NCBI GenBank assembly: GCA_027078545.1
Contig: JALWXN010000004.1
Location: 892,133 to 956,132 of the forward strand
DNA: 64,000 nt
Source: Nitrososphaeria archaeon
GTDB lineage: Archaea; Thermoproteota; Nitrososphaeria; Geothermarchaeales; JDFR-13
Direction: 5' to 3'
In this document: positions 4,407 through 45,218 of the stretch, one piece after another
Numbering within the stretch: the first letter of the stretch is position 1
Layout of the letters: each line of letters opens with the position of its first letter
The notes under the pieces: model-generated
Database searches by the model: none
What the model was told of the DNA's origin: nothing
What the model saw: only the letters and a program-made list of their open reading frames with translations
Program-made: the position numbers and the translations under genes

Positions 4407-5714
4407 GTGGTCAGGAGGTCGATAAAATTGTCCATAGTGGAGAATAGAGAGGAGATACTTAAGAAGTTCTTCGAGAAGGTGGACCCCGCCAAGCTGATAG
4501 AGGAGAATGTGAGTAGGAAGGGGGACGTCCTAAACATCGCGGGGGAGAAGCTAGACCTAAGGAAGTATAGGAAGGTCTATCTACTGGCCTACGGCAAGTC
4601 GGCATACAGGATGGCTGTGGGGCTCTACCCATACATCTCGGACAAGCTGGTAGACTCATTCGTCATCGTCGACAGGAGGAGCGGGGCGAAGGACAGTAGG
4701 TTCAGGATCTTCTGGGGTAACCACCCAATACCTGACGAGGAGGTCTATACAGCCACTAGGGAGATCATCAAGAAGGTTAGGTACTCGAGGAAGAGCTTCC
4801 TCATGTTCAACCTCATATCGGGTGGAGGCTCCGCACTACTCGAGTATCCATTCGCAAACCTTAAGCCGATAGACCTCGAGCGTATGTGGAGGATCCTCCT
4901 AGACCTAGGGCTCAACATACACGAGATGAACACTGTGAGGAGGCACCTCTCCGCGGTTAAGGGTGGAAGGCTGGCCAAGCTCCTATACCCCAGCAGGGTA
5001 TTCAGCCTAGTCATAAGCGACGTGGTGGGAGACCCGATACACGACATAGCCTCCGGCCCAACCGCACCAGACCCGACGACATACAAGGATGCATGGAACA
5101 TCCTCCTTAAATACGATGTGAATAGGAAGTGGAAGGCCTCCAGACTCATCAAGAGAGGTATGCAGGGGGCCCTGGAGGATACCCCCAAGCCTGGAGACCC
5201 CGTCTTCCAGAGGGTTACGAACAAGATCATAGCCAACATACCCCTAGCAGCGAGGATGTTCGCCGAGACACTGGAGGAGTTCGGGATGAAGACTGAGCTG
5301 GTCGATACACAGGTCGAGGCCAGGCCTGAGGAGGCGGCTGACAGGATATTCAGGGAGCTAATGGATAGGCTCGAGCCTGGCAAGGCCTATATCTATGCCG
5401 GGGAGCTCTACGGCCCAGCCGGCAAGACGGGTATCGGCGGCACAGCCCACGAACTGGCTCTACAGCTATACCTACGCTTCAGGGATGCGGATGTAGAGAT
5501 AATAGCCTTCGACACCGACGGCCTAGACGGGAACTCACCCGCAGCTGGCGGGATACTCAGGACTAATGAGGTCGGCGTAGGTGTAAGGGATATACTAGCC
5601 GCTATAGAGTCTAAGGACACCTATACATTGATGCAGCAGGCAGGGCTCAGCCTCCACACAGGCTATACAGGGGTGAAGATGGGGCAGATATGGGCCCTAT
5701 ACAAGCCTGGATAG
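4407..5714 (+). CDS. glycerate 2-kinase (MOFRL family)
   Basis: Motifs ISGGGSALL, HLSAVKGGRLA, ISDVVGDPIHDIASGPT, C-terminal DTDGLDGNSPAAGG. Start uncertain: GTG 4407, TTG 4428 or GTG 4437; AGGAGG at 4413-4418 and TATA-like TTTAAAATATATAT at 4351-4364. Confidence 0.7.
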   Translation: MVRRSIKLSIVENREEILKKFFEKVDPAKLIEENVSRKGDVLNIAGEKLDLRKYRKVYLLAYGKSAYRMAVGLYPYISDKLVDSFVIVDRRSGAKDSRFRIFWGNHPIPDEEVYTATREIIKKVRYSRKSFLMFNLISGGGSALLEYPFANLKPIDLERMWRILLDLGLNIHEMNTVRRHLSAVKGGRLAKLLYPSRVFSLVISDVVGDPIHDIASGPTAPDPTTYKDAWNILLKYDVNRKWKASRLIKRGMQGALEDTPKPGDPVFQRVTNKIIANIPLAARMFAETLEEFGMKTELVDTQVEARPEEAADRIFRELMDRLEPGKAYIYAGELYGPAGKTGIGGTAHELALQLYLRFRDADVEIIAFDTDGLDGNSPAAGGILRTNEVGVGVRDILAAIESKDTYTLMQQAGLSLHTGYTGVKMGQIWALYKPG

Positions 5715-5766
5715 CCACGCCACAACAACCCCGATTTAAAGCCTAGTGGACCCGGAATAGCTAGGT

Positions 5767-6669
5767 ATGGAGATAAGTATAGTAGACGTATCTCCCAGGC
5801 CGGGTATAGAGGGAGATATCTGCCTCTACGCCATAGAGACTGGAGAGGGGCTGATCCTCGTCGAGGCAGGGCCACCCAACGGGTTCCAACGCCTCGAGAA
5901 ATGGCTGTTGGAGAGGGGATACAGCTTCAGCGACATCAAGTACGTCCTACTCACCCATATCCACCTAGACCATGGTGGTGGAGCTGGATACATTGTACAG
6001 AGGGGTGGGAGGCCAGAGATATATGTACATCCACGTGGGGCTCCACATCTTGTAGACCCCTCCAAGCTATGGAGGTCGAGCCTAGAGACGATAGGCGACG
6101 TAGCCAGGGTATATGGAGAGCCCCTACCAGTGCCGGAGGAGCTAGTGAAGATCCCGAGTGATGGGGAGATGGTGGAGCTCCTAGGCCTGGGCTTCGAGTT
6201 CATCTATACACCTGGCCATGCCAAGCACCACATGTCTATCTACCTAGAGGATGAGGACATACTCTTCACGGGCGACTCGGCAGGCCTATACCACGGAGGC
6301 ACGGTGATCCCGACCACCCCGCCTCCCCACAACGTTGAGGAGAGTATTGCCAGTATCAGGAGGATGATGTCCCTAGCCCCCGGGAGGCTGGGATATACAC
6401 ACTTCGGGATAGTTGACGACGCACTGGACTGGCTCGAGAGGTATGAAATAGTCTATAACAAGTGGGTCAACCACGTGGAGAGGGGCTATAGGGAGGGACG
6501 TGGCATAGACGAGATCTACAGGGAGCTGAGACGTGTAGACCTTGGGATAGAGGTCCAAGAGAGGTTCTTCAGGTATAGGGGGTATGGGGAGGAGGAGGTC
6601 CTACTCAGCCTCTACGGGATCTATAGCTACTACGAGTGGCTCGAGACTCGTTCCAGCTCAGGATCTTGA
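5767..6669 (+). CDS. metallo-beta-lactamase fold hydrolase
   Basis: LLTHIHLDHGGGAGY (HxHxDH zinc site), downstream TPGHAKHH and FTGDSAG. Confidence 0.8.
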   Translation: MEISIVDVSPRPGIEGDICLYAIETGEGLILVEAGPPNGFQRLEKWLLERGYSFSDIKYVLLTHIHLDHGGGAGYIVQRGGRPEIYVHPRGAPHLVDPSKLWRSSLETIGDVARVYGEPLPVPEELVKIPSDGEMVELLGLGFEFIYTPGHAKHHMSIYLEDEDILFTGDSAGLYHGGTVIPTTPPPHNVEESIASIRRMMSLAPGRLGYTHFGIVDDALDWLERYEIVYNKWVNHVERGYREGRGIDEIYRELRRVDLGIEVQERFFRYRGYGEEEVLLSLYGIYSYYEWLETRSSSGS

Positions 6670-19524: not shown

Positions 19525-19956
19525 TCACCTCTTGAAGATCTTCTTGACACCCCCTAGGAGACCCTCGTCCTCCACCAGCTTGGCGCCACAATTCTCACAG
19601 AACCTACTACCAGCCGCGTTTGGATGCCCACACTCGGGGCAGTAGATAATGTTACCGGTATGGCTATGCCTAGCCGGAGTCGTAGAGGTAGGCTCCGCCT
19701 GTTGTGTCTGCTGGGCCGGCGGCTGGCTCGAGACACCTCCAGACCCGCTTAGCCCACTGGTCTTCAGGAGAACCACGTCCCCAACGGCCTGGATATTGCT
19801 GAAGAAGACATAGTTCTGCTCCTCACCCTCGCCGATGACCATCACTAGGTTGCCCTTCAGGTCGAAGCCTATGTCACTGACCTTCCCGAGGATCTTCCCG
19901 TTGGCGTCGATTACGGTCTTACCGACTACATCCTCCCTTCGGAAGAAGGAAGTCAT
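19525..19956 (-). CDS. PRC-barrel domain protein with C-terminal zinc ribbon
   Basis: N-terminal PRC-barrel-like GKTVIDANGKILGKVSDIGFDLKGNLV, low-complexity linker, C-terminal CPECGHPNAAGSRFCENCGAKL. ATG 19956 preferred over TTG 19977. Confidence 0.65.
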   Translation of the reverse strand: MTSFFRREDVVGKTVIDANGKILGKVSDIGFDLKGNLVMVIGEGEEQNYVFFSNIQAVGDVVLLKTSGLSGSGGVSSQPPAQQTQQAEPTSTTPARHSHTGNIIYCPECGHPNAAGSRFCENCGAKLVEDEGLLGGVKKIFKR

Positions 19957-19984
19957 GCTATCACGAAATACAATCAATCCACAA

Positions 19985-26216: not shown

Positions 26217-28910
26217 GTGGTCATTATTGAATACAACCTCAGGATCGGCCTCGAGGTACACATCCCACTCTCAACAGTAGAGACCAAGCTGTTCTGCACC
26301 TGCCCAAACCCGTTCAGACATCCTCCTGAGAGGCCTAACCAGTACGTATGCCCCACATGCCTAGGCCTACCCGGAGCCCTACCCAGCCCCAATATGGAGG
26401 CTATTAGGAAGGCGATAATCCTAGCGAAGGCCCTGAAGATGGAGATACCCAGGAAGATACAGTTCTATAGGAAGCATTATCTATACCCAGACCTACCCAA
26501 GGGATACCAGATAACCCAGTACATGGCTGGTGGAGACCTCCCAATAGGGATTAGGGGAGGGATGCTCTTCAGGGAGAGGTATATAGGGATAAGGAGGATA
26601 CAGCTGGAGGAGGATCCAGCCAAGCTGGAGCACCCAGGGGGGCTAGGCGAGTCGAGCAGGACGCTTATCGACTATAACAGGTCTGGCGCCCCACTGATAG
26701 AGCTTGTTACTGAGCCCGAGCTATACAGCCCTAGGGAGGCTAGGATATTCATAGAGGAGCTGACCAGACTCCTGGTCACCACGGGCATAATAGCTGAGGA
26801 TACACAGCCAAAGGTGGATGCAAACATATCTATCGAGGGTGGGCCTAGGGTAGAGATCAAGAACATATCCTCCCCAAGGGATGTGGAGAAGGCCCTGAGC
26901 TACGAGGCAATGAGGATGGCTAGATACATGGAGCAGGGTGTAAGGATCAGACGGGAGACGAGGCACTGGGACGATAGGAGGAGGGTCACGATACCCCTTA
27001 GGGAGAAGGAGTATGAGGAGGAGTATAGATACATACCCGATCCCAACCTCCCACCGATAGACATATCCGACATGATAGCCGAGGTCGAGGAGCCGGAGAC
27101 CCCCCTGAAGATCCTGGAGAGACTCATCAGGGATGGGGTCGATGTATACCCGGCCAAGATCATAGCCTCGGACAAGAGGCTCCTAAGAATCTACGAGGAG
27201 GCCTCGGAGGGTCTTGGTAAAAAGGCTAGGATGGAGCTGGCGAAGACACTTGTAAACGAGGCTAAACACATGCTCAACACAGGGAAGACTGTGGAGGAGC
27301 TCATAGAGACTATGAAGCCCCTATACCAGCTGGTGGATAAGGGCATCATCACCCCGGCAGAGGCGAGGAAGAAGCTCCTAGGGAGGAGGGGGCTGAGACA
27401 GGCCGACACAGGGGAGATACTCAAGACGCTTGAGGAAGTCCTCAGAGAGGTGGATCCAAGTAGGAGGAGGAGCCTAGACTACGTGGTCGGCACCGTGCTC
27501 AGGAGGCTCAGGGAGAGGGGGCTCGACGCAGATCCAAGGATTATTGCTGAGTATGCCCGTGGAAAGATCGAGACTGCTAGGAAGATAGAGGTTAGGAGGG
27601 CTAGGGCTGGAGGGGAGAGGGTGTATAAGGGCGCCGTGGAGGCCCCTAGGCCGCTGGATCCCAGCCAGCTACCCAGCCTGGTTGGCTCAGAGGCGGTCAT
27701 AGGCGGCTGGATAGAGACTCGGGCATACGTGGGGGACAAACTATTCCTAAGGCTCAGGCATTGGAGGGGCACTATACAGGTGGTGGCCCATGGGGATATC
27801 CGGGCCTACCAATACCTGTCGAGCCTCCCGAGAGAGGCATACATAGTCGTTAGGGGAAGGGTAGTCAGGGACTCCAGAGCCCCAGGCGGGCTAGAGATCC
27901 ACGCATCAGAGGTAATCCCCATAGGTACATCCACCGACCCACCAATGACGCTGATGGACCTGGCCAGGTCAAGTCTCCCAACCAGGGTCAGGCATAGATA
28001 CCTAGACATTAGGAGGCGTAGGGTAAGGGCTGTCCTATACATAAGGGCGAGGCTACTAGAGATCGTTAGGAGCCTCCTAACCAGGAAGGGCTTCGTGGAG
28101 ATACAGACACCCACGATAATAGCCTCGGCCACGGAGGGAGGGGCGGAGCTATTCCCACTGATATACTATGGTAGGGAGGCCTTCCTAGCCCAGAGCCCCC
28201 AGCTATATAAACAGATGGCTATAAACGCCTTCGAGAAGGTCTTCGAGATCGATAGCTACTACCGCGCCCAGAAGTTCGACACCCCACGCCACCTAGCGGA
28301 GTTCTGGTCCCTAGACGTCGAGGTCGCCCACCATGGGCTGGATGATCTGATCAGCCTAGCCAGGGAGATACTCCTAGAGATACATGGGACGCTCCCCTCA
28401 AAGGCGGGTGACGAGCTCATGCTCCTAGGGGTTGAACTTGAGCCAGGGCCTAGCTTCGCGGAGATGAGTTATGACGAGGCTGTGGAGATATCGGGGACGA
28501 GGTATGGCGAGGACATCTCTGCAGAGGCGTTGAGAGAGGTGTATAGGGAGGCGGGCGCTAGATACCTGTTCATAACCCACTGGCCAGAGGAGACCAGGGC
28601 CTTCTACTACCGCTCGATAGACGGTATAACCAAGAGCTTCGACCTCGTAGGACCCTTCACAGGGACGCCTATAGAGCTCGCCAGTGGCGGGGAGAGGATA
28701 AACAGCTATGACGAGCTCGTCAGGAGCATAAGGAGGAGGGGTCTGAGGGAGGAATCGTATGGATGGTACCTAGAGATGTTTAGGTATGGAATGCCCCCAC
28801 ACGGAGGCTTCGGGCTGGGGATAGACAGGCTACTAGCATCCCTCCTAGGCCTCGACTCAGTGCTGGAGGCCACTCTAGTGCCCAGGACGCCCAAGTACTA
28901 CATCCCATAG
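26217..28910 (+). CDS. gatB-aspS: apparent fusion protein: aspartyl/glutamyl-tRNA amidotransferase subunit B (N-terminal ~470 aa) joined to a complete class II aspartyl-tRNA synthetase (C-terminal ~420 aa)
   Basis: GatB part: GLEVHIPL, KLFCTCPNPF, CPTCLGLPGALPSPN, RKHYLYPDLPKGYQITQ, IDYNRSGAPLIELVTEP, EYRYIPDPNLPP, YqeY-like tail. AspRS part: OB-fold GGWIETRAYVGDKLFLRLRHWRGTIQVV, motif 1 GFVEIQTPTI, QSPQLYKQ, motif 2-like YYRAQKFDTPRHLAEFWSLDVE, motif 3 GGFGLGIDRLLASLLG. One frame, no stop between; GTG start with TATA-like boxes at 26170-26176 and 26190-26204. Confidence 0.8.
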   Translation: MVIIEYNLRIGLEVHIPLSTVETKLFCTCPNPFRHPPERPNQYVCPTCLGLPGALPSPNMEAIRKAIILAKALKMEIPRKIQFYRKHYLYPDLPKGYQITQYMAGGDLPIGIRGGMLFRERYIGIRRIQLEEDPAKLEHPGGLGESSRTLIDYNRSGAPLIELVTEPELYSPREARIFIEELTRLLVTTGIIAEDTQPKVDANISIEGGPRVEIKNISSPRDVEKALSYEAMRMARYMEQGVRIRRETRHWDDRRRVTIPLREKEYEEEYRYIPDPNLPPIDISDMIAEVEEPETPLKILERLIRDGVDVYPAKIIASDKRLLRIYEEASEGLGKKARMELAKTLVNEAKHMLNTGKTVEELIETMKPLYQLVDKGIITPAEARKKLLGRRGLRQADTGEILKTLEEVLREVDPSRRRSLDYVVGTVLRRLRERGLDADPRIIAEYARGKIETARKIEVRRARAGGERVYKGAVEAPRPLDPSQLPSLVGSEAVIGGWIETRAYVGDKLFLRLRHWRGTIQVVAHGDIRAYQYLSSLPREAYIVVRGRVVRDSRAPGGLEIHASEVIPIGTSTDPPMTLMDLARSSLPTRVRHRYLDIRRRRVRAVLYIRARLLEIVRSLLTRKGFVEIQTPTIIASATEGGAELFPLIYYGREAFLAQSPQLYKQMAINAFEKVFEIDSYYRAQKFDTPRHLAEFWSLDVEVAHHGLDDLISLAREILLEIHGTLPSKAGDELMLLGVELEPGPSFAEMSYDEAVEISGTRYGEDISAEALREVYREAGARYLFITHWPEETRAFYYRSIDGITKSFDLVGPFTGTPIELASGGERINSYDELVRSIRRRGLREESYGWYLEMFRYGMPPHGGFGLGIDRLLASLLGLDSVLEATLVPRTPKYYIP

Positions 28911-28919
28911 GTGGTGCAT

Positions 28920-30338
28920 ATGCTGAAGCTACTAGACCTCTTCGAGGCGGACGACCCGATAAGCCTGAGCGAGAAGTACTATGAAAGGTTAAAGAGATGG
29001 GAGGAGAGGATAAACATCTTCATAACACTGAGGGAGTGGGGGGAGATCCAGCTTGTCCACGAGCCTGGTAAGCCCCTCTCAGGAGGCCTGATACCCGTCA
29101 AGGACAACATATCAACAAGGGGGGTGAGAACCACCTGTGGAAGCAGGATACTCGAGAACTACATACCCCCCTATGACGCCTATGCCGTGGAGAGGCTGGG
29201 GGAGATAGGCCTAAAAGTGGTTGGGAAGACCAATATGGACGAGTTCGGGATGGGGAGCACCGGGGAGAACAGCGGGTATGGACCGACACGTAATCCATGG
29301 AACACCAGCCACGTCCCCGGGGGAAGCAGCTCAGGGAGCGCAGCAGCTGTAGCGGTGGCTGGCGGGACTTCCCTCGGGAGCGATACTGGTGGTAGTGTCA
29401 GGCTACCAGCTGCATACTGCTACGTACTGGGTTTGAAGCCGACATACGGCCTGGTGAGCCGCTACGGACTAGTATCCTACGCCGATAGCCTGGAGCAGAT
29501 CGGGATACTCGCTAGATACCCGGAGGACATGGCCTACATACTATACCACATATCCAAGCTCGATAAGAGGGACATGACCATGCCACGTACAGAGGATAGG
29601 GAGGAGCTTAGGGAGAGGCTTATAAACCTCTACACCGGAGGAGCCGATGGGCTGGAGGGGTTGAGGATAGGCTACTCCCCAGAACTGATAGAGATGGCCG
29701 ACGATGCCGTGGCGAGGGAGGCATACCGGGCGCTGAATAAGCTGGTCGAGCTGGGGGTAGAGACCCTTGAGATAGACCTGGGATTCATGGAGGCAGGCCT
29801 ACCCACCTACTACGCCATAGCTATGGCCGAGGCATCCTCGAACCTGATGAGGTACGACGGCGTCCTATACGGCTACATGGAGAGGGAGGGGGAATACTGG
29901 AGCAGCGTATATAGGACACGGGCGCTGAGGCTTGGAGAGGAGGTTAAGAGGCGCATCGTCTACGGCTCCCTAATAACCTCTGCAGGCTACAGTGGGAGGT
30001 ACTACATAAAGGCGCTCAGGATAAGGAGGTGGATAAGGGACATGATGATAGATAGGCTTAGGAGGGTCGACGCCGTGCTGATGCCAACATCACCATCCAC
30101 ACCGCCCAGGCTCGGCGAGGTTGAGGGTGTGGACATGTATGCCCTAGACCTATACACAGTGATACCCAACCTAACAGGCCATCCAGCCATAAACATCCCA
30201 GCCGGATTCGTGGGCGGCCTACCAGTGGGGATACAGCTTGTAACCAGTTATTTCAACGACGACCTATTGATAAGGATCGCCAAGGGGCTCGAGGGAGTCC
30301 TATACGACCCTTCAAAGGAGGTGGATACCGATGGATAG
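28920..30338 (+). CDS. gatA: aspartyl/glutamyl-tRNA amidotransferase subunit A (amidase signature family)
   Basis: Amidase signature GGSSSGSAAAVAVAGG...GSDTGGSVRLPAA; alternative GTG start 28911 abuts the stop of the upstream ORF. Confidence 0.85.
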   Translation: MLKLLDLFEADDPISLSEKYYERLKRWEERINIFITLREWGEIQLVHEPGKPLSGGLIPVKDNISTRGVRTTCGSRILENYIPPYDAYAVERLGEIGLKVVGKTNMDEFGMGSTGENSGYGPTRNPWNTSHVPGGSSSGSAAAVAVAGGTSLGSDTGGSVRLPAAYCYVLGLKPTYGLVSRYGLVSYADSLEQIGILARYPEDMAYILYHISKLDKRDMTMPRTEDREELRERLINLYTGGADGLEGLRIGYSPELIEMADDAVAREAYRALNKLVELGVETLEIDLGFMEAGLPTYYAIAMAEASSNLMRYDGVLYGYMEREGEYWSSVYRTRALRLGEEVKRRIVYGSLITSAGYSGRYYIKALRIRRWIRDMMIDRLRRVDAVLMPTSPSTPPRLGEVEGVDMYALDLYTVIPNLTGHPAINIPAGFVGGLPVGIQLVTSYFNDDLLIRIAKGLEGVLYDPSKEVDTDG

Positions 30339-30597
30339 GGAGGATGTGGAGAAGGCCTTAAGACTAGCCGGTATAGGGGACGACCCTGAGAAATATATTG
30401 AGCAGCTGGAGAAAGTGGAGAGGCTCTTCAGCCAACTCGACAAGTGGCTCGACGAGGCTCCTGAGAGGCCTCTCTACCATCCCCTCGACATCAATACAGA
30501 GCCAAGGAGGGACGAGCCCAAAACCAGCGACACTAGCACCTGGATAGAGGGGGATGAGGAGGGCTATGTAGAGGCCCCACCCCTAAGACGTAGATAG
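30331..30597 (+). CDS. gatC: aspartyl/glutamyl-tRNA amidotransferase subunit C
   Basis: 88-aa helical protein, start overlaps gatA stop by 8 nt; position and size fit GatC. Confidence 0.6.
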   Translation: MDREDVEKALRLAGIGDDPEKYIEQLEKVERLFSQLDKWLDEAPERPLYHPLDINTEPRRDEPKTSDTSTWIEGDEEGYVEAPPLRRR

Positions 30598-34163: not shown

Positions 34164-34252
34164 GGCCGTCACGGGCTATACGGATCGGGCGGAACACTTT
34201 CACACTACACATCACCTGGATGATATACACCTAGGCAGTCCATACACTATTG

Positions 34253-34894
34253 ATGAGGAGCACCGGCGTATGGTTCCTAGACGAGGTATTCGGCGGTATA
34301 AGGCCTGGGAAGACTTATGAGGTGGACGGCTATCCATGGAGCCTCCTAAAGGAGGTTATGCACCGTGTGGTGGCCCACCTCTCCATGGAGAGCCGCGTAG
34401 TCATCATATATGGACAGTACTTCGACGGGCTTGATCCATACCTCCTGATAAGGATTGGGCGTGAAGAAGGGCTAGACACGGGCCTCCTGAAGAGGAATAT
34501 AAGGCTCGCCCGCTGCTTCAAGGGGGAGGACATGGCGACGAATATCAGGAGGGGTGTTAGGACGGCTGGATACCTATTGGTGGTCGACCCCTACCTACAC
34601 ACCTACATGACTGGTAGGGCCGATCTCTATCCCATGATAGCCTCCGAACTATACAGGGCCAAGATGAGGGGTAGGGGGATACTCATCTTCAACAGGATAA
34701 GGTGGGATGGGAAGCCCCTAGGCGGAAACCTCCATCGACACTCCCTCGACTATGTAGCCAGGCTCGTTATGATGGATAGGCTTATACATGTGGAGCTGGT
34801 GAAGGCACTGGACAGGCCATCCATAAGCTTCGCCATCGACTCCTCAAACCCCTGGAGAAGGGGGATACAACACCTCCTCGACAGGTGGATATGA
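34253..34894 (+). CDS. RecA-superfamily protein with degenerate Walker A (RadA-paralog-like; function unknown)
   Basis: FLDEVFGGIRPGKTYEV resembles the RadA/RecA LDxxLGGGxxxG region but a canonical P-loop is not evident; tightly coupled to downstream genes. Confidence 0.45.
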   Translation: MRSTGVWFLDEVFGGIRPGKTYEVDGYPWSLLKEVMHRVVAHLSMESRVVIIYGQYFDGLDPYLLIRIGREEGLDTGLLKRNIRLARCFKGEDMATNIRRGVRTAGYLLVVDPYLHTYMTGRADLYPMIASELYRAKMRGRGILIFNRIRWDGKPLGGNLHRHSLDYVARLVMMDRLIHVELVKALDRPSISFAIDSSNPWRRGIQHLLDRWI

Positions 34895-34895
34895 G

Positions 34896-35162
34896 ATGGG
34901 GAGGTCTATACCCAGCCCAACCAGGCATATAGACCGTGAGATAAGGAGGATTAGGAGGCTGGCCAGGAGATACCCGATGTATAGAGAGGGGCTCGAGAGG
35001 CTGGCGAGGATACTGAGGAGGCGGAGGAGCATAGTATACCTCCTAACCGACCCTGAGGACGTGGCCGACCTACCATACCTAGTCGCCGCATCGGTGCTAC
35101 AGGGTGGTGAGGATGGGGACGGGCTGGATACTCAGGGTATTGAGAGACCTAGAGAGGGATAG
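34896..35162 (+). CDS. small arginine-rich hypothetical protein
   Basis: 88-aa ORF starting 2 nt after the upstream stop and overlapping the polB2-like start by 59 nt; Arg-rich N-terminus, acidic C-terminus. Could be spurious. Confidence 0.3.
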   Translation: MGRSIPSPTRHIDREIRRIRRLARRYPMYREGLERLARILRRRRSIVYLLTDPEDVADLPYLVAASVLQGGEDGDGLDTQGIERPREG

Positions 35163-37116
35163 ATACGTACTCGTCATCAGGGAGTTTAGTGGTAGGAAGA
35201 TCCTCAGGGACCTAGTGCACCACCCCTCGATATACGTCAGCGGGGATAGGGAGGACCTGAGGGAGCTGCTTAGGGGGCTGGAGGCCTCGGACTACCTAGT
35301 CGACTATGTATATGAGGAGTGGCTCCTCCCACCCTGGTATAGGAGGAGGGGGAGGATACTTAGGATAGACCTGCCAGGCCCTAGGGAGTATGACGAGGTC
35401 CTTAGACACCTTAGGCTGGACGGGAGGTATAGGCTGTGGAACACCTATCCAAGCGACACCCAGATGACGATGTATAGGATGGGGATAGCCCCCTCACTAC
35501 TCCTCAGGACAATGGATCTCCACCCAATAGACAATCCATGGGACATGAACTATCTAGAGCCCAGGTTCAGAAGGGTGGTCATAAGGCTCCTAGACTGGTA
35601 CGGAGAGGTGGTGAATCCATGGGCTAAGGAGCCGACGATCTACGAGGTGTCCTACAACCTGGATGGCTACTGGGACGAGGCTATCTATAGAGGGCTGGAC
35701 AGCCTCATAGACGACCTGAGGGAGTACGACCCCGACGTGGTGGAGTTCACCTCATCATCCGCATATATATGGCTGAGGGAGAGGGATGAGTTCTTCAGAG
35801 ACACTTCGAGGGCATATATAGACTATGAGAGGAACGTCCTGGAGCCCCATGAATACCACGGCTTCATAGAGCTCAGCAGGCTCAGCAGGACGGATATACA
35901 CGAGGTATCAAGATACAGCATAGGGAAGATACTCACCACGATAGAGGCCTACGAGGCACTATCAATGGGCCGCGCCATACCTGAGGTGAGGACTGAGTGG
36001 GAGGGCTTCAAGGACATCAGGCTCCTAAGCAGGGTCGACAGGGGTGGATACATAGCCAGCCCGAGGCCCGGGCTATACTGGAACGTGGCCCAGTGCGACT
36101 TCACAAGCCTATACCCCTCCATAATCGTGAGGTACAACATTGGTAACGAGACCGTCAATAGGCCTGGCTGCAGCAGGGAGATAAGGGTTCCCGAGGCTGG
36201 GCACAGGATATGCCTAGACACTAGATCCGTCGTGGCAAGCACGCTGGAGAAGCTCTTGAAGAGGAGGGTCAGGCTTAAAGACATGGCTAGGGAGACTGGC
36301 AACCCCATCCTGAATAGTCGGCAGAACGCCTTGAAATGGATACTCGTCACATGCTTCGGATACCTAGGCTATAGGAACGCCCGGTTCGGGAAGATCGAGG
36401 CCTATGAATCGGTGACCTCCTACGCGAGGCAGATAATGTATAGGGCTGCAGAGATAGCCAGGGAGATGGGGCTGGAGGTGATCCACATACTGGTGGACAG
36501 CATATGGGTATCCGGCGGAGACGAGGAGACCTATAGGAAGTACTGTATGAAGGTAACCCTAGAGACGGGGTTCAGGATGGAGCTCGAGGCCCTCTACAGG
36601 TGGCTATACATACCCCCCAACAGGTCGGGCATGGGTGAGGCGGCGATAAACAGGTATGTAGGCGGACTGATGGAGGGTGGCTACAAGGCCAAGGGTGTAG
36701 AGATGGTTAGGAGCGATGTCCCCAGGATAGTAGCCGAGTTCCAGCGCTACGCACTCGCACTACTAGCAACCGCTAAGACCCCTGAGGAGCTTGAACACAT
36801 GGCCAGTAAGATCCCAGTGCTGATAGATAAGTTCAGAGCCGCCATGTTAAGCGGGGAGGTAGAGCTGGAGGACCTCGTAGTAACACGTAGACTCTCCAAG
36901 AAGCCGGGTGAATACCTGTCTAGACAGCCACATGTAGAGGCGGCCAAGAAGCTTGGTAGATGGGTGGGCAAGGTGAAGTATATACTCACATCCAGGGGGC
37001 CGGTGCCGGTGGAGCTATGGAGACCCTCGATGGGCTACGACGTCGATAAATATGTCGAGATGATGGTTAGGAGCCTAGCCAGCCTACCAGTACCACTAGA
37101 GAGGCTGGGCCTATAA
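35104..37116 (+). CDS. family B DNA polymerase, PolB2 (Dpo2)-like, no exonuclease motifs and degenerate motifs B and C
   Basis: Motif A DFTSLYPSII intact; motif B region NALKWILVTCFGYLG diverged from KxxxNSxYG; motif C position reads HILVDSIW instead of YGDTDS; 670 aa. GTG 35104 or ATG 35113. Confidence 0.75.
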   Translation: MVRMGTGWILRVLRDLERDRYVLVIREFSGRKILRDLVHHPSIYVSGDREDLRELLRGLEASDYLVDYVYEEWLLPPWYRRRGRILRIDLPGPREYDEVLRHLRLDGRYRLWNTYPSDTQMTMYRMGIAPSLLLRTMDLHPIDNPWDMNYLEPRFRRVVIRLLDWYGEVVNPWAKEPTIYEVSYNLDGYWDEAIYRGLDSLIDDLREYDPDVVEFTSSSAYIWLRERDEFFRDTSRAYIDYERNVLEPHEYHGFIELSRLSRTDIHEVSRYSIGKILTTIEAYEALSMGRAIPEVRTEWEGFKDIRLLSRVDRGGYIASPRPGLYWNVAQCDFTSLYPSIIVRYNIGNETVNRPGCSREIRVPEAGHRICLDTRSVVASTLEKLLKRRVRLKDMARETGNPILNSRQNALKWILVTCFGYLGYRNARFGKIEAYESVTSYARQIMYRAAEIAREMGLEVIHILVDSIWVSGGDEETYRKYCMKVTLETGFRMELEALYRWLYIPPNRSGMGEAAINRYVGGLMEGGYKAKGVEMVRSDVPRIVAEFQRYALALLATAKTPEELEHMASKIPVLIDKFRAAMLSGEVELEDLVVTRRLSKKPGEYLSRQPHVEAAKKLGRWVGKVKYILTSRGPVPVELWRPSMGYDVDKYVEMMVRSLASLPVPLERLGL

Positions 37117-37212: not shown

Positions 37213-39291
37213 TTGAACCGATACCTCTACCTACTATTATCCATACCAATACTCCTCCTACTGCCACAGACAGTGGTGACGGCTAACACCTATATAGTGC
37301 CGATAGACTACCCCACCATACAGGACGCGGTGGACAACGTACCGCCAGGATCCACGATAAGGATACTCGGAACAGTGGTGGAGAACGGGATAGTGATAGA
37401 CAAGACCCTGACAATAGAAGGCGGAGTGGTGGACTATGGAGATGACTGGGGCTTCTACATAAGGCGGGGAACAACCACCTTTAGGGACATCACACTCAGG
37501 GCCAGGTATCTCTGGTACAACAGTATAATCCCGCCGACATTCACATACTCAGCCTCGGCGGGCATAATAGCGATGGACTCCGAGGTAGTTATAGACAACG
37601 TCACTATCCATACCGATGGCCGTATCCAGGATAGGTCGGAGAAGATCTCCTACTACTACGGCATAGTCGGTAGGGACAGGAGCATAGTCAGGGGCGACGG
37701 GCTCAACATATCCGAGATGGATATAGGGATAGAGATGAGCGACACCCAGAAATCTATCACGCCCCAATGCTACCTGATATACACCGCATATACGAAGTGC
37801 CTAGTAGGCGGTGTCGACAAGAGTGTTACCCTAGACGTCTCTAACGTAACTATCCAGAGCGAGGTAGGCGTAGCCATATTCAGCATGTATCCAAATGACT
37901 ACTACAGGGTTAGGGACTTCAACATCACCGGTGAGATCCCCATCTATATAAGGAACACATTCAAGGACACTAGCAAGACCGACTTCTCCACATTCATCTT
38001 CGCCGGGGGAGAACTGAGGAGCATACCCGACGAGGGAAAGTTCATTCAGCCCTATGGAACAGGGGTATACATAGTATCGATGGGGATGACCGACTTCACG
38101 CTCAGTGACGCCCTGGTATATGGCGAGAGGTATGGAGTACAGCATCAGGAGGCGGGTGGAGAGGTCAAGTATACACGTTGGCGAATAGCGGTTGAGAGGA
38201 GCAGCATACTGGCATATACAAATGGGTTTAGGTATGACTCGGCCCAACCAAAGGCAACAGTATCTAACGATGTAGACGTCTTTATCAGGGATACGTTGAT
38301 AAACTCTTATGCCAGTACTGTCAGTGAGGGAATATTTATAACATCGACAAACCCGTTGCGGAACTATCTACATGTAGAGGTGATCAACACAAATATCAGC
38401 GGCTTTTATATAGGCCTATCATTCAGGTTCGACAGGATAAACATGTTCAACTTAACGATGCACCGTCTATTCTTCCTAAACCCGAGTGGATATGGACTCA
38501 GCGTATGGACAGTAACCTTCGAAAAGGGATATTTATGGGCAGGATATAGCCTACTATACAGCATAATAGTAATGACAGAGACAGACTACCCCTTCTACCT
38601 CTATGAGACGGTCTATGACGAGAAGAACTCCCTGATCTGGGGCAAGATAGAGATAGAGGTCTGGTGGACACTCCTGACAGAGGTATTCAGCAGTCTAACC
38701 AACAACCCGATCCAGGGAGCCACGGTAACCTATAACTGGGACATAGGCACAGCCTCAGGCCTCACCGACTCCGCTGGAAGATATACCTACCAGTTCCACT
38801 ACAAGTATGGAAACGGGCCTAGATATGGGCCGGGATATACCTTTGTAAACACCATATGGGTGGGCGCCAACTACTACGGAGTATCAGCGTCGACTACGCA
38901 TCTAACATACTTTGGAGACACATTGACGAGTCCCAGCTGGTATAGACACATAGACTTCTACCTACCCGCCCTGATCCTCAAGGTCCTAGGCTTCAGCCAC
39001 GACATGGGGACTACATACCTAGTCATAAGGGGTCTTGAGGGGGCCTTCATAGGCTACTACAGCTATACACCTGACGAGATAAGGGTTCCGCCGAGTATCC
39101 AAGACCTCTCCACAGGGTATAGGAAGTACCCCCTGAGGATAGCCTCGATAATCTTCCAGGGAGCCTATACAAGGGTCGATGCACAGATATTCTACGATGG
39201 CTATTGGCAGCCGACCACGATATATATTGGACGGGTAACCGGGATGGTCTGGAGCCCAGGCCCGGTAGACTTCAGGGGCTGGCTAGGATAG
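37213..39291 (+). CDS. secreted protein with predicted right-handed beta-helix repeats
   Basis: TTG start then signal peptide MNRYLYLLLSIPILLLLPQTVVTA; repetitive Gly/Asn/Thr-rich beta segments typical of parallel beta-helix surface proteins. Confidence 0.55.
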   Translation: MNRYLYLLLSIPILLLLPQTVVTANTYIVPIDYPTIQDAVDNVPPGSTIRILGTVVENGIVIDKTLTIEGGVVDYGDDWGFYIRRGTTTFRDITLRARYLWYNSIIPPTFTYSASAGIIAMDSEVVIDNVTIHTDGRIQDRSEKISYYYGIVGRDRSIVRGDGLNISEMDIGIEMSDTQKSITPQCYLIYTAYTKCLVGGVDKSVTLDVSNVTIQSEVGVAIFSMYPNDYYRVRDFNITGEIPIYIRNTFKDTSKTDFSTFIFAGGELRSIPDEGKFIQPYGTGVYIVSMGMTDFTLSDALVYGERYGVQHQEAGGEVKYTRWRIAVERSSILAYTNGFRYDSAQPKATVSNDVDVFIRDTLINSYASTVSEGIFITSTNPLRNYLHVEVINTNISGFYIGLSFRFDRINMFNLTMHRLFFLNPSGYGLSVWTVTFEKGYLWAGYSLLYSIIVMTETDYPFYLYETVYDEKNSLIWGKIEIEVWWTLLTEVFSSLTNNPIQGATVTYNWDIGTASGLTDSAGRYTYQFHYKYGNGPRYGPGYTFVNTIWVGANYYGVSASTTHLTYFGDTLTSPSWYRHIDFYLPALILKVLGFSHDMGTTYLVIRGLEGAFIGYYSYTPDEIRVPPSIQDLSTGYRKYPLRIASIIFQGAYTRVDAQIFYDGYWQPTTIYIGRVTGMVWSPGPVDFRGWLG

Positions 39292-44354: not shown

Positions 44355-45218
44355 ATGAGGGGCCTAGCTATATCCCTCACCCTCCTATTTTTATTTATAC
44401 AGCCACACCCATACTTGATACCCCTCGACGATGAAGGCATATATATGAAATACTCTGGATTCTTCGGGCTTTACACTCCACTTTACGGGGTTTATAGTGG
44501 AGAGCCCCTTGAGCCAGAAATACTGGACGCTACCCCCTTTGTCGAAGGTGAATTGTTGGTAAGGCTCGATAAAAACTATATTGAATATGCCATCTACACC
44601 ATAGAGATCAGGTTTAAGGGGAGTTACGAGGCCCTTGAGAGGCTGGGCCTAGGCACCAGGTTCACTGTCTCTGTAAAGGTTTACAGGGAAGGGGGCATGA
44701 TAGACTTCCTGGGCCATCGCATCCCCTTCCTATTCGTAGCCGATCTTGACTATCTCTCCAATGGCCCCCATGAGATTCGAATATCTATAAACGGGACCTC
44801 CAACATCTCGATCAGTTTGCTGGAGCTTGAGGATAGGGTTGAGGAGATTGTTCTGAAGGGAGCATACTCTGTCCAGACCTTCGGATTGGACAATGGCCAC
44901 AAGTATCTGGCTGGTATATTTAATGACAAGGATAAGAGGATACTCGCCACTTATTCATATCGTGGATACGCCAGATTCTACAACTTCTTGGTTACGCCAC
45001 TGCTGAGGATGGGTATAGTCATCACCTTCCATGGCAACCTAGTAGATACTAATCTAGAGGGGGTTCAGAAACAGCCAAGCCCACTAGAGATGTATAGATC
45101 ACTACTATCCTCACTATTTGGGCCATTCGGGAGTGTCCTCTACTATACCAGCCTCATCACACTTTTAGGTCTGGTGATAGTGGCACTAGCTAAGCTAATT
45201 AGGAGGCTCAGAGGATGA
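44355..45218 (+). CDS. secreted hypothetical protein with C-terminal TM anchor (tandem paralog 1)
   Basis: Signal peptide MRGLAISLTLLFLFIQP; C-terminal TM LITLLGLVIVALAKLIRRLRG; clear similarity to the following ORF (e.g. LPFLLVIDMDYIS vs IPFLFVADLDYLS). Confidence 0.55.
   Translation: MRGLAISLTLLFLFIQPHPYLIPLDDEGIYMKYSGFFGLYTPLYGVYSGEPLEPEILDATPFVEGELLVRLDKNYIEYAIYTIEIRFKGSYEALERLGLGTRFTVSVKVYREGGMIDFLGHRIPFLFVADLDYLSNGPHEIRISINGTSNISISLLELEDRVEEIVLKGAYSVQTFGLDNGHKYLAGIFNDKDKRILATYSYRGYARFYNFLVTPLLRMGIVITFHGNLVDTNLEGVQKQPSPLEMYRSLLSSLFGPFGSVLYYTSLITLLGLVIVALAKLIRRLRG

What the first reader, a model, noticed from the sequence alone, without database searches (positions are those of the whole stretch)
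34253..37116. PolB2-like family B polymerase with degenerate catalytic motifs, co-transcribed with a degenerate RecA-like protein and an Arg-rich small ORF
The 670-aa polymerase retains motif A (DFTSLYPSII) but has diverged motif B and has VDS where motif C YGDTDS should be, and shows no exonuclease motifs. This is the pattern of crenarchaeal PolB2/Dpo2, long considered inactive and more recently linked to damage tolerance. It is preceded, with 2-nt and overlapping junctions, by a RecA-fold protein lacking a canonical P-loop and by an 88-aa Arg-rich ORF, suggesting a dedicated DNA-damage operon.
Basis: partly seen in the sequence, partly recalled or inferred. Interest (0 to 1): 0.55.

Follow-up and report, generated by a model that had tools for sequence, protein, structure and literature searches.

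The report
Known archaeal PolB2 damage-tolerance operon

Summary
Three co-oriented, tightly packed ORFs lie at 34250/34253–37116. They are a 214-aa Rad51/RadA-fold protein without a P-loop, an 88-aa Arg-rich helical protein starting MGRS, and a 667/670-aa family B polymerase. The polymerase has motif A intact, motif B diverged, and motif C reduced to LVD. No exonuclease domain is recognisable. This trio is the iRadA–PPB2 (arCOG07300)–PolB2 operon, first noted in 2013–2014 (PMC4104785) and modelled as a heteropentameric "PolB2 mutasome" in 2025 (PMC11791011). Among 79 related PolB2 loci, nearly all with enough upstream DNA carry both partner genes beside the polymerase. All share the window's motif signature (DRGG; KWxLVxxFGYLGY; HxΦxDS). 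"Degenerate" does not mean dead: the two metal-binding aspartates (D332, D465) are kept, and Sulfolobus Dpo2, which has the same substitution, is an active exonuclease-free mismatch extender. Two further points emerged. iRadA ends in a PCNA-binding-type motif (QHLLDRWI). An ANTTTC element, the Orc1-2 damage-response site of Sulfolobales, sits about 55 nt upstream of the start codon; it recurs at that position in 12 of 41 iRadA lineages. The nearest relative is a Candidatus Geothermarchaeota MAG. Verdict: an ordinary member of a known system, of low interest.

The parts
34196..34201 (+). ACTTTC, an ANTTTC-type element (candidate Orc1-2 DNA-damage-response element) within the conserved block GGAACACTTTCACACTACACATCACC
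   Evidence: It lies 52–57 nt upstream of ATG 34253. A.TTTC falls in −75..−40 upstream of iRadA in 24/65 loci and 12/41 dereplicated lineages, against about 2.2 of 65 loci expected. Intergenic conservation with L001 starts exactly here. The motif and its position in S. islandicus are described in PMC6061795.
34222..34229 (+). TATA-box-like GATATACA, about 25 nt upstream of the iRadA start; this implies a leaderless or near-leaderless transcript
   Evidence: Read directly from the sequence. The equivalent region is conserved in L001. Function is inferred, not tested.
34250..34894 (+). iRadA: a 214-aa inactivated RadA/Rad51 homologue with no N-terminal HhH domain, no Walker A motif, and a C-terminal PIP-like QHLLDRWI
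   Evidence: The family profile hits PDB RadA at E=2.7e-21. The AlphaFold2 model has pLDDT 80 and pTM 0.81. Foldseek places RAD51/RadA/DMC1 on top with TM 0.70–0.76. A PIP-like tail occurs in 22/61 homologues.
34896..35162 (+). PPB2 (arCOG07300 family): an 88-aa Arg-rich helical protein starting MGRSIPS; its C-terminal 16 residues overlap the polB2 start
   Evidence: A local HMM finds homologues beside PolB2 in 65 loci. G2 and R3 are invariant in alignment A4. Three helices are predicted, but at low confidence (pLDDT 59).
35113..37116 (+). PolB2 (Dpo2-type family B polymerase), 667 aa from ATG 35113 (the ORF is open from GTG 35104). Features: D(K/R) motif D312-R313, motif A D332, motif C L463-V464-D465, no exonuclease active site
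   Evidence: Pfam PF00136 hit at 3e-29. PDB alignments. Motif table across 79 syntenic homologues. Start inferred from the homologue consensus MxxGWIL and an SD-like GGTG at 35103–35106.

Best explanation
The locus is a chromosomal iRadA–PPB2–PolB2 operon, the archaeal "PolB2 mutasome".

Shown here:
- The three proteins belong to these three families.
- The gene trio is conserved across many archaeal (and some bacterial) genomes.
- The polymerase keeps both metal-binding aspartates (motif A D332, motif C D465) but has lost the first motif C Asp and any recognisable exonuclease site.
- iRadA is a Rad51-fold protein without an ATP-binding loop.
- iRadA ends in a PCNA-interaction-type motif.

Inferred from published work on homologues:
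- PolB2 is an active, proofreading-free polymerase that extends mismatched or lesion-paired primer ends during translesion synthesis.
- It works in a complex with one iRadA and a PPB2 trimer. iRadA docks on a Rad51-oligomerisation-like loop just before the D(K/R) motif. The MGR(S/T) arm of PPB2 inserts between PolB2, iRadA and DNA.
- The complex is brought to the sliding clamp through the iRadA C-terminus.

Inferred here:
- The three genes are transcribed as one unit from a TATA-type promoter about 25 nt upstream of the first start codon.
- Translation is coupled through the 1-nt gap and the 50-nt overlap.
- An upstream ANTTTC element makes the operon inducible by DNA damage through an Orc1-2-type regulator.
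For: - ORFs and junctions.
- PolB identity and motifs.
- Synteny: local HMM searches of the 79 loci found with the PolB alignment detect iRadA in more than 60 and PPB2 in 65, next to the polymerase; most are in the same iRadA–PPB2–PolB2 order.
- iRadA: profile hit to RadA/Rad51/DMC1 structures down to 2.7e-21, 10/24 family members hit Pfam Rad51, and the fold search is topped by RAD51/RadA.
- PPB2: invariant G2/R3, the MGR(S/T)xPS motif, and three predicted helices.
- PIP-like tail QHLLDRWI on iRadA, with none on PolB2. This matches the published pattern that the clamp motif is usually on one partner only (PMC11791011).
- Published biology: the operon and its predicted complex (PMC4104785; PMC11791011); Dpo2 is active, lacks exonuclease activity and extends mismatches (PMC8764526); dpo2 induction depends on Orc1-2, and ANTTTC is the Orc1-2 site (PMC6061795).
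- ANTTTC enrichment and position.
Against: - No experiment exists for this organism; activity, complex formation and induction are all extrapolated.
- The PPB2 model was made from a single sequence and has low confidence (pLDDT 59).
- The complex could not be modelled with the tools available.
- The window polymerase does not reach the curated cut-off of the best NCBIfam model (282 against 516 bits). Six other syntenic PolB2s, including Sulfolobales MAGs, also fail it.
- The nearest non-identical relatives break the pattern. L002–L005 have PPB2–PolB2 without an adjacent iRadA, and L010 has neither within ±6 kb. The partnership is therefore not obligatorily in cis.
- ANTTTC is only a 5-specified-base motif, and no orc1/cdc6 gene was found among the 20 window genes scanned.
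Confidence: 0.85

Rival explanations
1. The polymerase is a catalytically dead pseudo-enzyme. On this view the three proteins form a non-catalytic complex that regulates replication or handles stalled forks, which was the original 2014 reading of PolB2.
For: The first Asp of motif C is lost, motif B is diverged and the exonuclease motifs are gone. iRadA has also lost its ATPase site. Makarova et al. raised this possibility (PMC4104785).
Against: The two metal-ligand aspartates D332 and D465 are invariant across all aligned homologues. S. islandicus Dpo2 has the same kind of substitution (IID) yet shows robust polymerase activity and is required for damage-induced mutagenesis (PMC8764526; PMC11791011).
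Confidence: 0.07
2. The RecA-like protein and the small ORF act independently of the polymerase, for example as a RadA-paralogue recombination mediator, and are only neighbours by chance or through shared regulation.
For: In L002–L005 and L010 the polymerase is not next to an iRadA gene, so physical linkage is not absolute. RadA paralogues with mediator roles exist in archaea (general knowledge, not tested here).
Against: The trio is adjacent in the large majority of the 79 loci, across Desulfurococcales, Sulfolobales, Bathyarchaeia and Geothermarchaeota, and in a few records labelled bacterial. The genes here are 1 nt apart or overlapping. Published AlphaFold-Multimer models of 40 such trios gave confident heteropentamers, whereas PolB2 with genuine RadA scored poorly (PMC11791011).
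Confidence: 0.05
3. The polymerase belongs to a mobile element (a casposon or other protein-primed or plasmid-borne PolB) rather than to a cellular repair system.
For: Divergent family B polymerases are common on archaeal mobile elements (PMC4104785).
Against: GC content is unremarkable across the locus. The flanking genes are housekeeping: glutamine synthetase, a K+ channel, acetyl-CoA synthetase-like and GatCAB genes. No integrase or cas1 was seen. The same gene order occurs in the related MAG L001. The best relatives are all syntenic PolB2s.
Confidence: 0.01

Closest known systems
iRadA–PPB2–PolB2 operon / PolB2 mutasome (S. islandicus Dpo2 with F0NED7 and F0NED5; Makarova 2014, Timinskas 2025)
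   Same: Same three protein families, same gene order (iRadA–PPB2–PolB2) and same strand. The first motif C Asp is lost (LVD here, IID in S. islandicus). The D(K/R) motif precedes motif A. There is no exonuclease site. iRadA lacks the N-terminal domain and Walker A motif. PPB2 has the N-terminal MGR(S/T) arm. The PIP-type motif is on iRadA and not on PolB2. An ANTTTC element lies upstream.
   Different: The host lineage differs (closest to Candidatus Geothermarchaeota). The iRadA is very divergent: no Pfam hit and only 4 word-level homologues. PPB2 has Thr9/Arg10 rather than Arg9 and a 16-residue acidic tail encoded in the 50-nt overlap with polB2. No biochemical or expression data exist for this lineage.
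E. coli Pol V mutasome (UmuD'2C–RecA)
   Same: The working logic is shared: a damage-inducible translesion polymerase that needs a small dimeric or trimeric accessory protein and one RecA-family subunit (PMC11791011).
   Different: Pol V is a Y-family polymerase, uses active RecA taken from a filament, and is under LexA control. It is analogous, not homologous.
Eukaryotic Pol ζ (Rev3–Rev7)
   Same: A family B polymerase without proofreading that specialises in extending mismatched or lesion-paired termini (PMC8764526).
   Different: The accessory subunits are different and unrelated (Rev7, Pol31/Pol32). There is no Rad51-fold subunit and no operon.
Archaeal PolB3-type polymerases (KOD, Pfu, Tgo, P. 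calidifontis PolB)
   Same: These are the best solved-structure matches. Palm, fingers and thumb align over residues about 245–645 at E as low as 4e-62 with the family profile.
   Different: PolB3 enzymes have an intact exonuclease domain, a canonical motif B (KxxxNSxYG) and motif C DTD, and are not linked to iRadA or PPB2.

Membership tests
PolB2 (Dpo2-type family B polymerase) | Family B polymerase catalytic domain | tested here: met
   PF00136 hit at E=3e-29. Aligns to KOD/Pfu over residues 255–625 at E=6e-36.
PolB2 (Dpo2-type family B polymerase) | First Asp of the motif C DxD replaced, second Asp retained (true of most PolB2) | tested here: met
   L463-V464-D465 aligns to KOD D540-T541-D542. 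All 79 syntenic homologues have (I/L)(V/T/I)D.
PolB2 (Dpo2-type family B polymerase) | Exonuclease active site lost or domain decayed | tested here: met
   No PF03104 hit at E≤1. The N-terminal 245 residues do not align significantly to any solved PolB. In the marginal alignment, Exo I DIE aligns to IRL and Exo II NSNGFD aligns to SSSAY. The residue-level mapping is weak.
PolB2 (Dpo2-type family B polymerase) | Conserved D(K/R) motif in the loop before motif A | tested here: met
   D312-R313 within DRGG. D312 is invariant and R313 is ≥90% conserved in A1. The spacing to motif C is 151–153 residues, against 148–150 in S. islandicus.
PolB2 (Dpo2-type family B polymerase) | Genomic association with iRadA and PPB2 | tested here: met
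   Both genes lie immediately upstream here and beside the polymerase in most of the 79 related loci.
PolB2 (Dpo2-type family B polymerase) | Placement inside the PolB2 clade in a PolB1/PolB2/PolB3 phylogeny | not tested
   No reference PolB1 or PolB3 sequence set could be obtained. Indirect evidence only: every close relative is a syntenic PolB2, and PolB3-type structures score better than Sso PolB1.
PolB2 (Dpo2-type family B polymerase) | Polymerase activity without 3'-5' exonuclease; efficient mismatch extension | not testable with these tools
   Known only for S. islandicus Dpo2 (PMC8764526).
NCBIfam NF004416 (type B DNA polymerase, equivalog) | Score at or above the curated cut-off (516 bits) | tested here: not met
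   This is the best-scoring model, but at 282 bits. Six other syntenic PolB2s score 220–358, also below the cut-off. The model is therefore narrower than the PolB2 family.
iRadA (inactivated RadA of PolB2 operons) | Rad51/RadA ATPase-core fold | tested here: met
   Profile A3 hits P. furiosus RadA at E=2.7e-21. The AlphaFold2 model (pLDDT 80) matches RAD51/RadA/DMC1 with TM 0.70–0.76.
iRadA (inactivated RadA of PolB2 operons) | N-terminal helical (HhH/oligomerisation) domain absent | tested here: met
   The protein is 214 aa. The alignment starts at residue 112 of full-length RadA 1pzn (349 aa).
iRadA (inactivated RadA of PolB2 operons) | ATPase site (Walker A) lost | tested here: met
   RadA GEFGSGKTQ aligns to DGYPWSLLKE. 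The GGIRPGKT string at residues 15–22 is out of position and not conserved.
iRadA (inactivated RadA of PolB2 operons) | C-terminal PCNA-binding motif (present in many members, not all) | tested here: met
   QHLLDRWI lies at the extreme C-terminus. The same pattern occurs in 22/61 homologues. Binding itself was not tested.
PPB2 (arCOG07300) | About 90-aa protein with a conserved N-terminal MGRT-type arm | tested here: met
   The protein begins MGRSIPSPTR. G2 and R3 are invariant in 20 sequences. A local HMM links it to 65 PolB2-adjacent ORFs.
PPB2 (arCOG07300) | Three-helix fold | tested here: inconclusive
   The single-sequence AlphaFold2 model gives helices 8–25, 27–45 and 53–69, but with mean pLDDT 59 and pTM 0.38.
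PPB2 (arCOG07300) | Forms a trimer and joins PolB2 and iRadA in a 1:1:3 complex | not testable with these tools
   No multimer prediction was available. The complex is itself only an in silico prediction in PMC11791011.
Orc1-2 DNA-damage regulon (Sulfolobales) | ANTTTC element in the promoter, −23 to −55 from the ATG | tested here: met
   ACTTTC at −57..−52 from ATG 34253, about 20 nt upstream of a TATA-like box. It is positionally enriched upstream of iRadA in 12/41 lineages. It sits at the outer edge of the published range.
Orc1-2 DNA-damage regulon (Sulfolobales) | An Orc1-2 orthologue in the genome and damage-inducible transcription | not testable with these tools
   Only 64 kb of the genome is available. 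No Orc1/Cdc6 domain was found in the 20 window proteins scanned.

The most novel reading that the evidence does not exclude
The Orc1-2-type damage-response element (ANTTTC, about 55 nt upstream of the start codon and about 20 nt upstream of the TATA box) may control the PolB2 operon well beyond Sulfolobales. Candidate lineages include Desulfurococcales, this Geothermarchaeota-like lineage and possibly some Bathyarchaeia. That would imply an ancient, widely shared archaeal SOS-like regulon with the PolB2 mutasome as a core target. In the searchable literature the element is described only for Sulfolobales.
Probability: 0.4. Interest if true: 0.45.

Novelty: already known. Interest (0 to 1): 0.2.

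Why it matters
The PolB2 mutasome is the main route of damage-induced mutagenesis in the one archaeon where it has been tested. It is a striking analogue of bacterial Pol V and eukaryotic Pol ζ. This locus adds another clean, complete example from a deep-branching, uncultured thermophilic lineage, but it does not change what is known. The one useful by-product is the fixed-position ANTTTC element upstream of iRadA in many non-Sulfolobales genomes. That gives a cheap, testable handle on whether the Orc1-2 damage response is ancestral in this part of the archaeal tree.

Tried and rejected
- Pfam and NCBIfam scans of the 214-aa and 88-aa proteins gave nothing useful. The only hit was a chance-level IntS14_C match (E=0.17), which I rejected.
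- The word-based homologue search for the 214-aa protein returned only 4 proteins. The family became visible only through synteny-guided local HMMs.
- I checked the literal GxxxxGKT match at iRadA residues 15–22 and rejected it as a P-loop.
- The NCBIfam equivalog NF004416 was tried as a way to name the polymerase. Its cut-off is not met by this or by other syntenic PolB2s, so it is not a usable membership test.
- The bacterial-type promoter and terminator scan was uninformative for an archaeon.
- The fold search against AFDB50, meant to find Sulfolobus iRadA F0NED7 directly, failed because the library was unavailable.
- The PPB2 model was too weak to justify a fold search.
- I looked for orc1/cdc6 or other repair genes among 20 window genes and found none.
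- A mobile-element origin was considered and rejected on context.
- The third large homologue search and the representative-library search were not used, because the answer did not depend on them.
Full report
**What is there.** Three co-oriented ORFs occupy 34250–37116 on the + strand.
- A 214-aa ORF runs 34250–34894 (TTG at 34250, ATG at 34253).
- An 88-aa ORF runs 34896–35162. It has 18 arginines.
- A 670-aa ORF runs 35104–37116 from a GTG.
- One nucleotide separates the first stop codon from the second ATG.
- The second and third ORFs overlap. Homologues of the polymerase begin MxxGWIL, and a GGTG string lies 6 nt before ATG 35113. The polymerase therefore most likely starts at 35113, giving 667 aa and a 50-nt overlap.
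- GC content is unremarkable.
- The surrounding genes are housekeeping: GatCAB-type genes, an Lrp regulator, glutamine synthetase, a γ-glutamyl cyclotransferase-like protein, a TrkA-type K+ channel, an unannotated secreted protein and an acetyl-CoA synthetase-like enzyme.
- The closest public locus, at 93% protein identity and with the same gene order, is a Candidatus Geothermarchaeota MAG.

**The polymerase.** It hits Pfam DNA_pol_B (3e-29) and no exonuclease model.
Motif A DFTSLYPSII is intact. Motif B is KWILVTCFGYLGY where PolB3 has KILANSLYGYYGY. Motif C is HILVDS where PolB3 has YSDTDG.
- The substitution removes only the first Asp. D465, which aligns to KOD D542, and D332 of motif A are invariant in every homologue aligned. 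From general knowledge of family B enzymes, these two are the metal-ligand carboxylates.
- A family profile aligns to solved PolBs only from about residue 245 onward. In the one marginal N-terminal alignment, Exo I DIE aligns to IRL and Exo II NSNGFD to SSSAY.
- The loop before motif A carries D312-R313 in an invariant DRGG. This is the D(K/R) motif reported as typical of PolB2.
- The best NCBIfam model, NF004416, is not reached (282 against 516 bits). Six other syntenic PolB2s, including Sulfolobales MAGs, also fall short. That model is therefore too narrow to decide membership.

**The RecA-like protein.** On its own it hits no Pfam or NCBIfam model, and it had only four word-level homologues.
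- A profile built from synteny-identified relatives hits the P. furiosus RadA ATPase core at 2.7e-21, followed by DMC1 and RAD51. Ten of 24 family members hit Pfam Rad51.
- An AlphaFold2 model (pLDDT 80, pTM 0.81) matches RAD51, RadA and DMC1 structures with TM 0.70–0.76.
- The alignment begins after RadA's N-terminal domain and places DGYPWSLLKE where RadA has GEFGSGKTQ. Both the N-terminal domain and the P-loop are absent.
- Residues 15–22 (GGIRPGKT) form a literal GxxxxGKT string. This string lies before strand β1, aligns to RadA GGGIETQAIT, and reads GRT in an 83%-identical homologue. I reject it as a P-loop.
- The protein ends in QHLLDRWI, which is PIP-box-like. The same pattern ends 22 of 61 homologues, and the window polymerase has no such tail.

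**The small ORF.** It begins MGRSIPSPTR.
- In an alignment of 20 PolB2-adjacent small proteins, G2 and R3 are invariant and MGR(T/S)xPS is the consensus. This matches the published MGRT arm of PPB2.
- A single-sequence structure prediction gives three helices, but at low confidence.
- The disordered acidic tail, roughly residues 70–88, covers the part encoded in the overlap with polB2.

**Synteny.** A genome-collection scan with the polymerase alignment returned 79 loci.
- Local iterative HMM searches found an iRadA homologue in more than 60 of them and a PPB2 homologue in 65, next to the polymerase. They are usually in the order iRadA–PPB2–PolB2 and sometimes divergently oriented.
- The loci span Desulfurococcales, Sulfolobales, Acidilobaceae, Bathyarchaeia, Geothermarchaeota, Hadarchaeota and a few records labelled bacterial.
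- There are exceptions among the nearer relatives. L002–L005 have PPB2–PolB2 preceded by a membrane protein gene, and L010 has neither partner within 6 kb.
That test is clearly not met.

**What is already known.**
- The association of PolB2 with arCOG07300 and inactivated RadA was reported in 2013–2014 (PMC4104785).
- It was analysed in depth in 2025 (PMC11791011). That work named the partners PPB2 and iRadA and modelled a PolB2:iRadA:PPB2₃ heteropentamer. It showed that iRadA binds a Rad51-oligomerisation-like loop of PolB2, and it found clamp-binding motifs mostly on iRadA.
- S. islandicus Dpo2 carries IID in motif C. It is an active polymerase without exonuclease activity that extends mismatches (PMC8764526), and it is required for damage-induced mutagenesis.
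- Its induction depends on Orc1-2, which binds ANTTTC in damage-response promoters (PMC6061795).
- The window locus matches every sequence-level feature of this system that I could test.

**Regulation (inferred).** The 86-nt region upstream of iRadA contains two candidate elements.
- ACTTTC lies at 34196–34201, which is −57..−52 from the ATG.
- A TATA-like GATATACA lies at 34222–34229, about 25 nt before the start codon. This suggests a leaderless transcript.
- A.TTTC falls within −75..−40 of the iRadA start in 24 of 65 loci, against 2.2 expected from the background frequency.
- After dereplication at 60% identity, the motif is present in 12 of 41 lineages.
- Control ORFs show 7.9%, a figure inflated because it includes the iRadA genes themselves.
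- In Desulfurococcales the surrounding sequence (AATAGTTTCGGCGTACTCTC) matches the 20-bp S. islandicus consensus at 19 of 20 positions. The window matches it at 14 of 20.
- Between the window and L001, intergenic conservation begins exactly at GGAACACTTTCAC.
- In the searchable literature the motif is described only for Sulfolobales.
- No orc1/cdc6 gene was found among the 20 window genes scanned.
- This part remains a hypothesis and is the only modestly new element.

**Verdict.** The system is already known. "Degenerate" should not be read as inactive. Interest is low.

Noticed in passing
window 26217-28910 (+); also L003 1053-3692 (-) and L005 1047-3635 (-): A continuous 897-aa ORF combines a GatB/GatE catalytic domain (residues 9–287, 2e-81) with a complete class II Asp/Asn/Lys-type tRNA synthetase: the OB anticodon domain (494–569) plus the catalytic core (589–891, 1e-70). 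GatA-like and GatC-like genes follow directly (28911–30338 and 30331–30597). The same fusion architecture occurs in two other MAGs from independent assemblies. No GatB YqeY tail domain was detected. This looks like a covalently fused transamidosome (AspRS + amidotransferase B subunit). One literature search turned up no description of such a natural fusion.
   Followed up: partly
L002-L005 about 4460-6020; L010 3000-6000: The nearest non-identical relatives of the window PolB2 (45–57% identity) do not have iRadA next to PPB2–PolB2. In L002–L005 a 377–378-aa multi-pass membrane protein gene sits there instead. L010 has neither partner within 6 kb and is preceded by a metal-regulator-like gene. 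I could not check whether iRadA is encoded elsewhere in those genomes or has been lost.
   Followed up: partly
L014, L016, L017, L031, L074: about 85-92 nt upstream of the iRadA start: Several further loci carry ACTTTC or A.TTTC upstream of iRadA but outside the −75..−40 counting window. The enrichment figure is therefore conservative. The spacing to the start codon appears to fall into two classes, about 55 nt and about 88 nt.
   Followed up: no
window 37213-39291 (+): A 692-aa ORF lies immediately downstream of polB2. It has an N-terminal signal-peptide-like hydrophobic segment and no Pfam match. It is conserved in the same position in L001 (8112–10190).
   Followed up: no
window 19525-19977 (-) and 44355-45218 (+): Among window ORFs of at least 150 aa, only these two besides iRadA have an A.TTTC within −75..−40 of their longest-ORF start. 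Neither is an obvious repair gene. This is probably chance.
   Followed up: no
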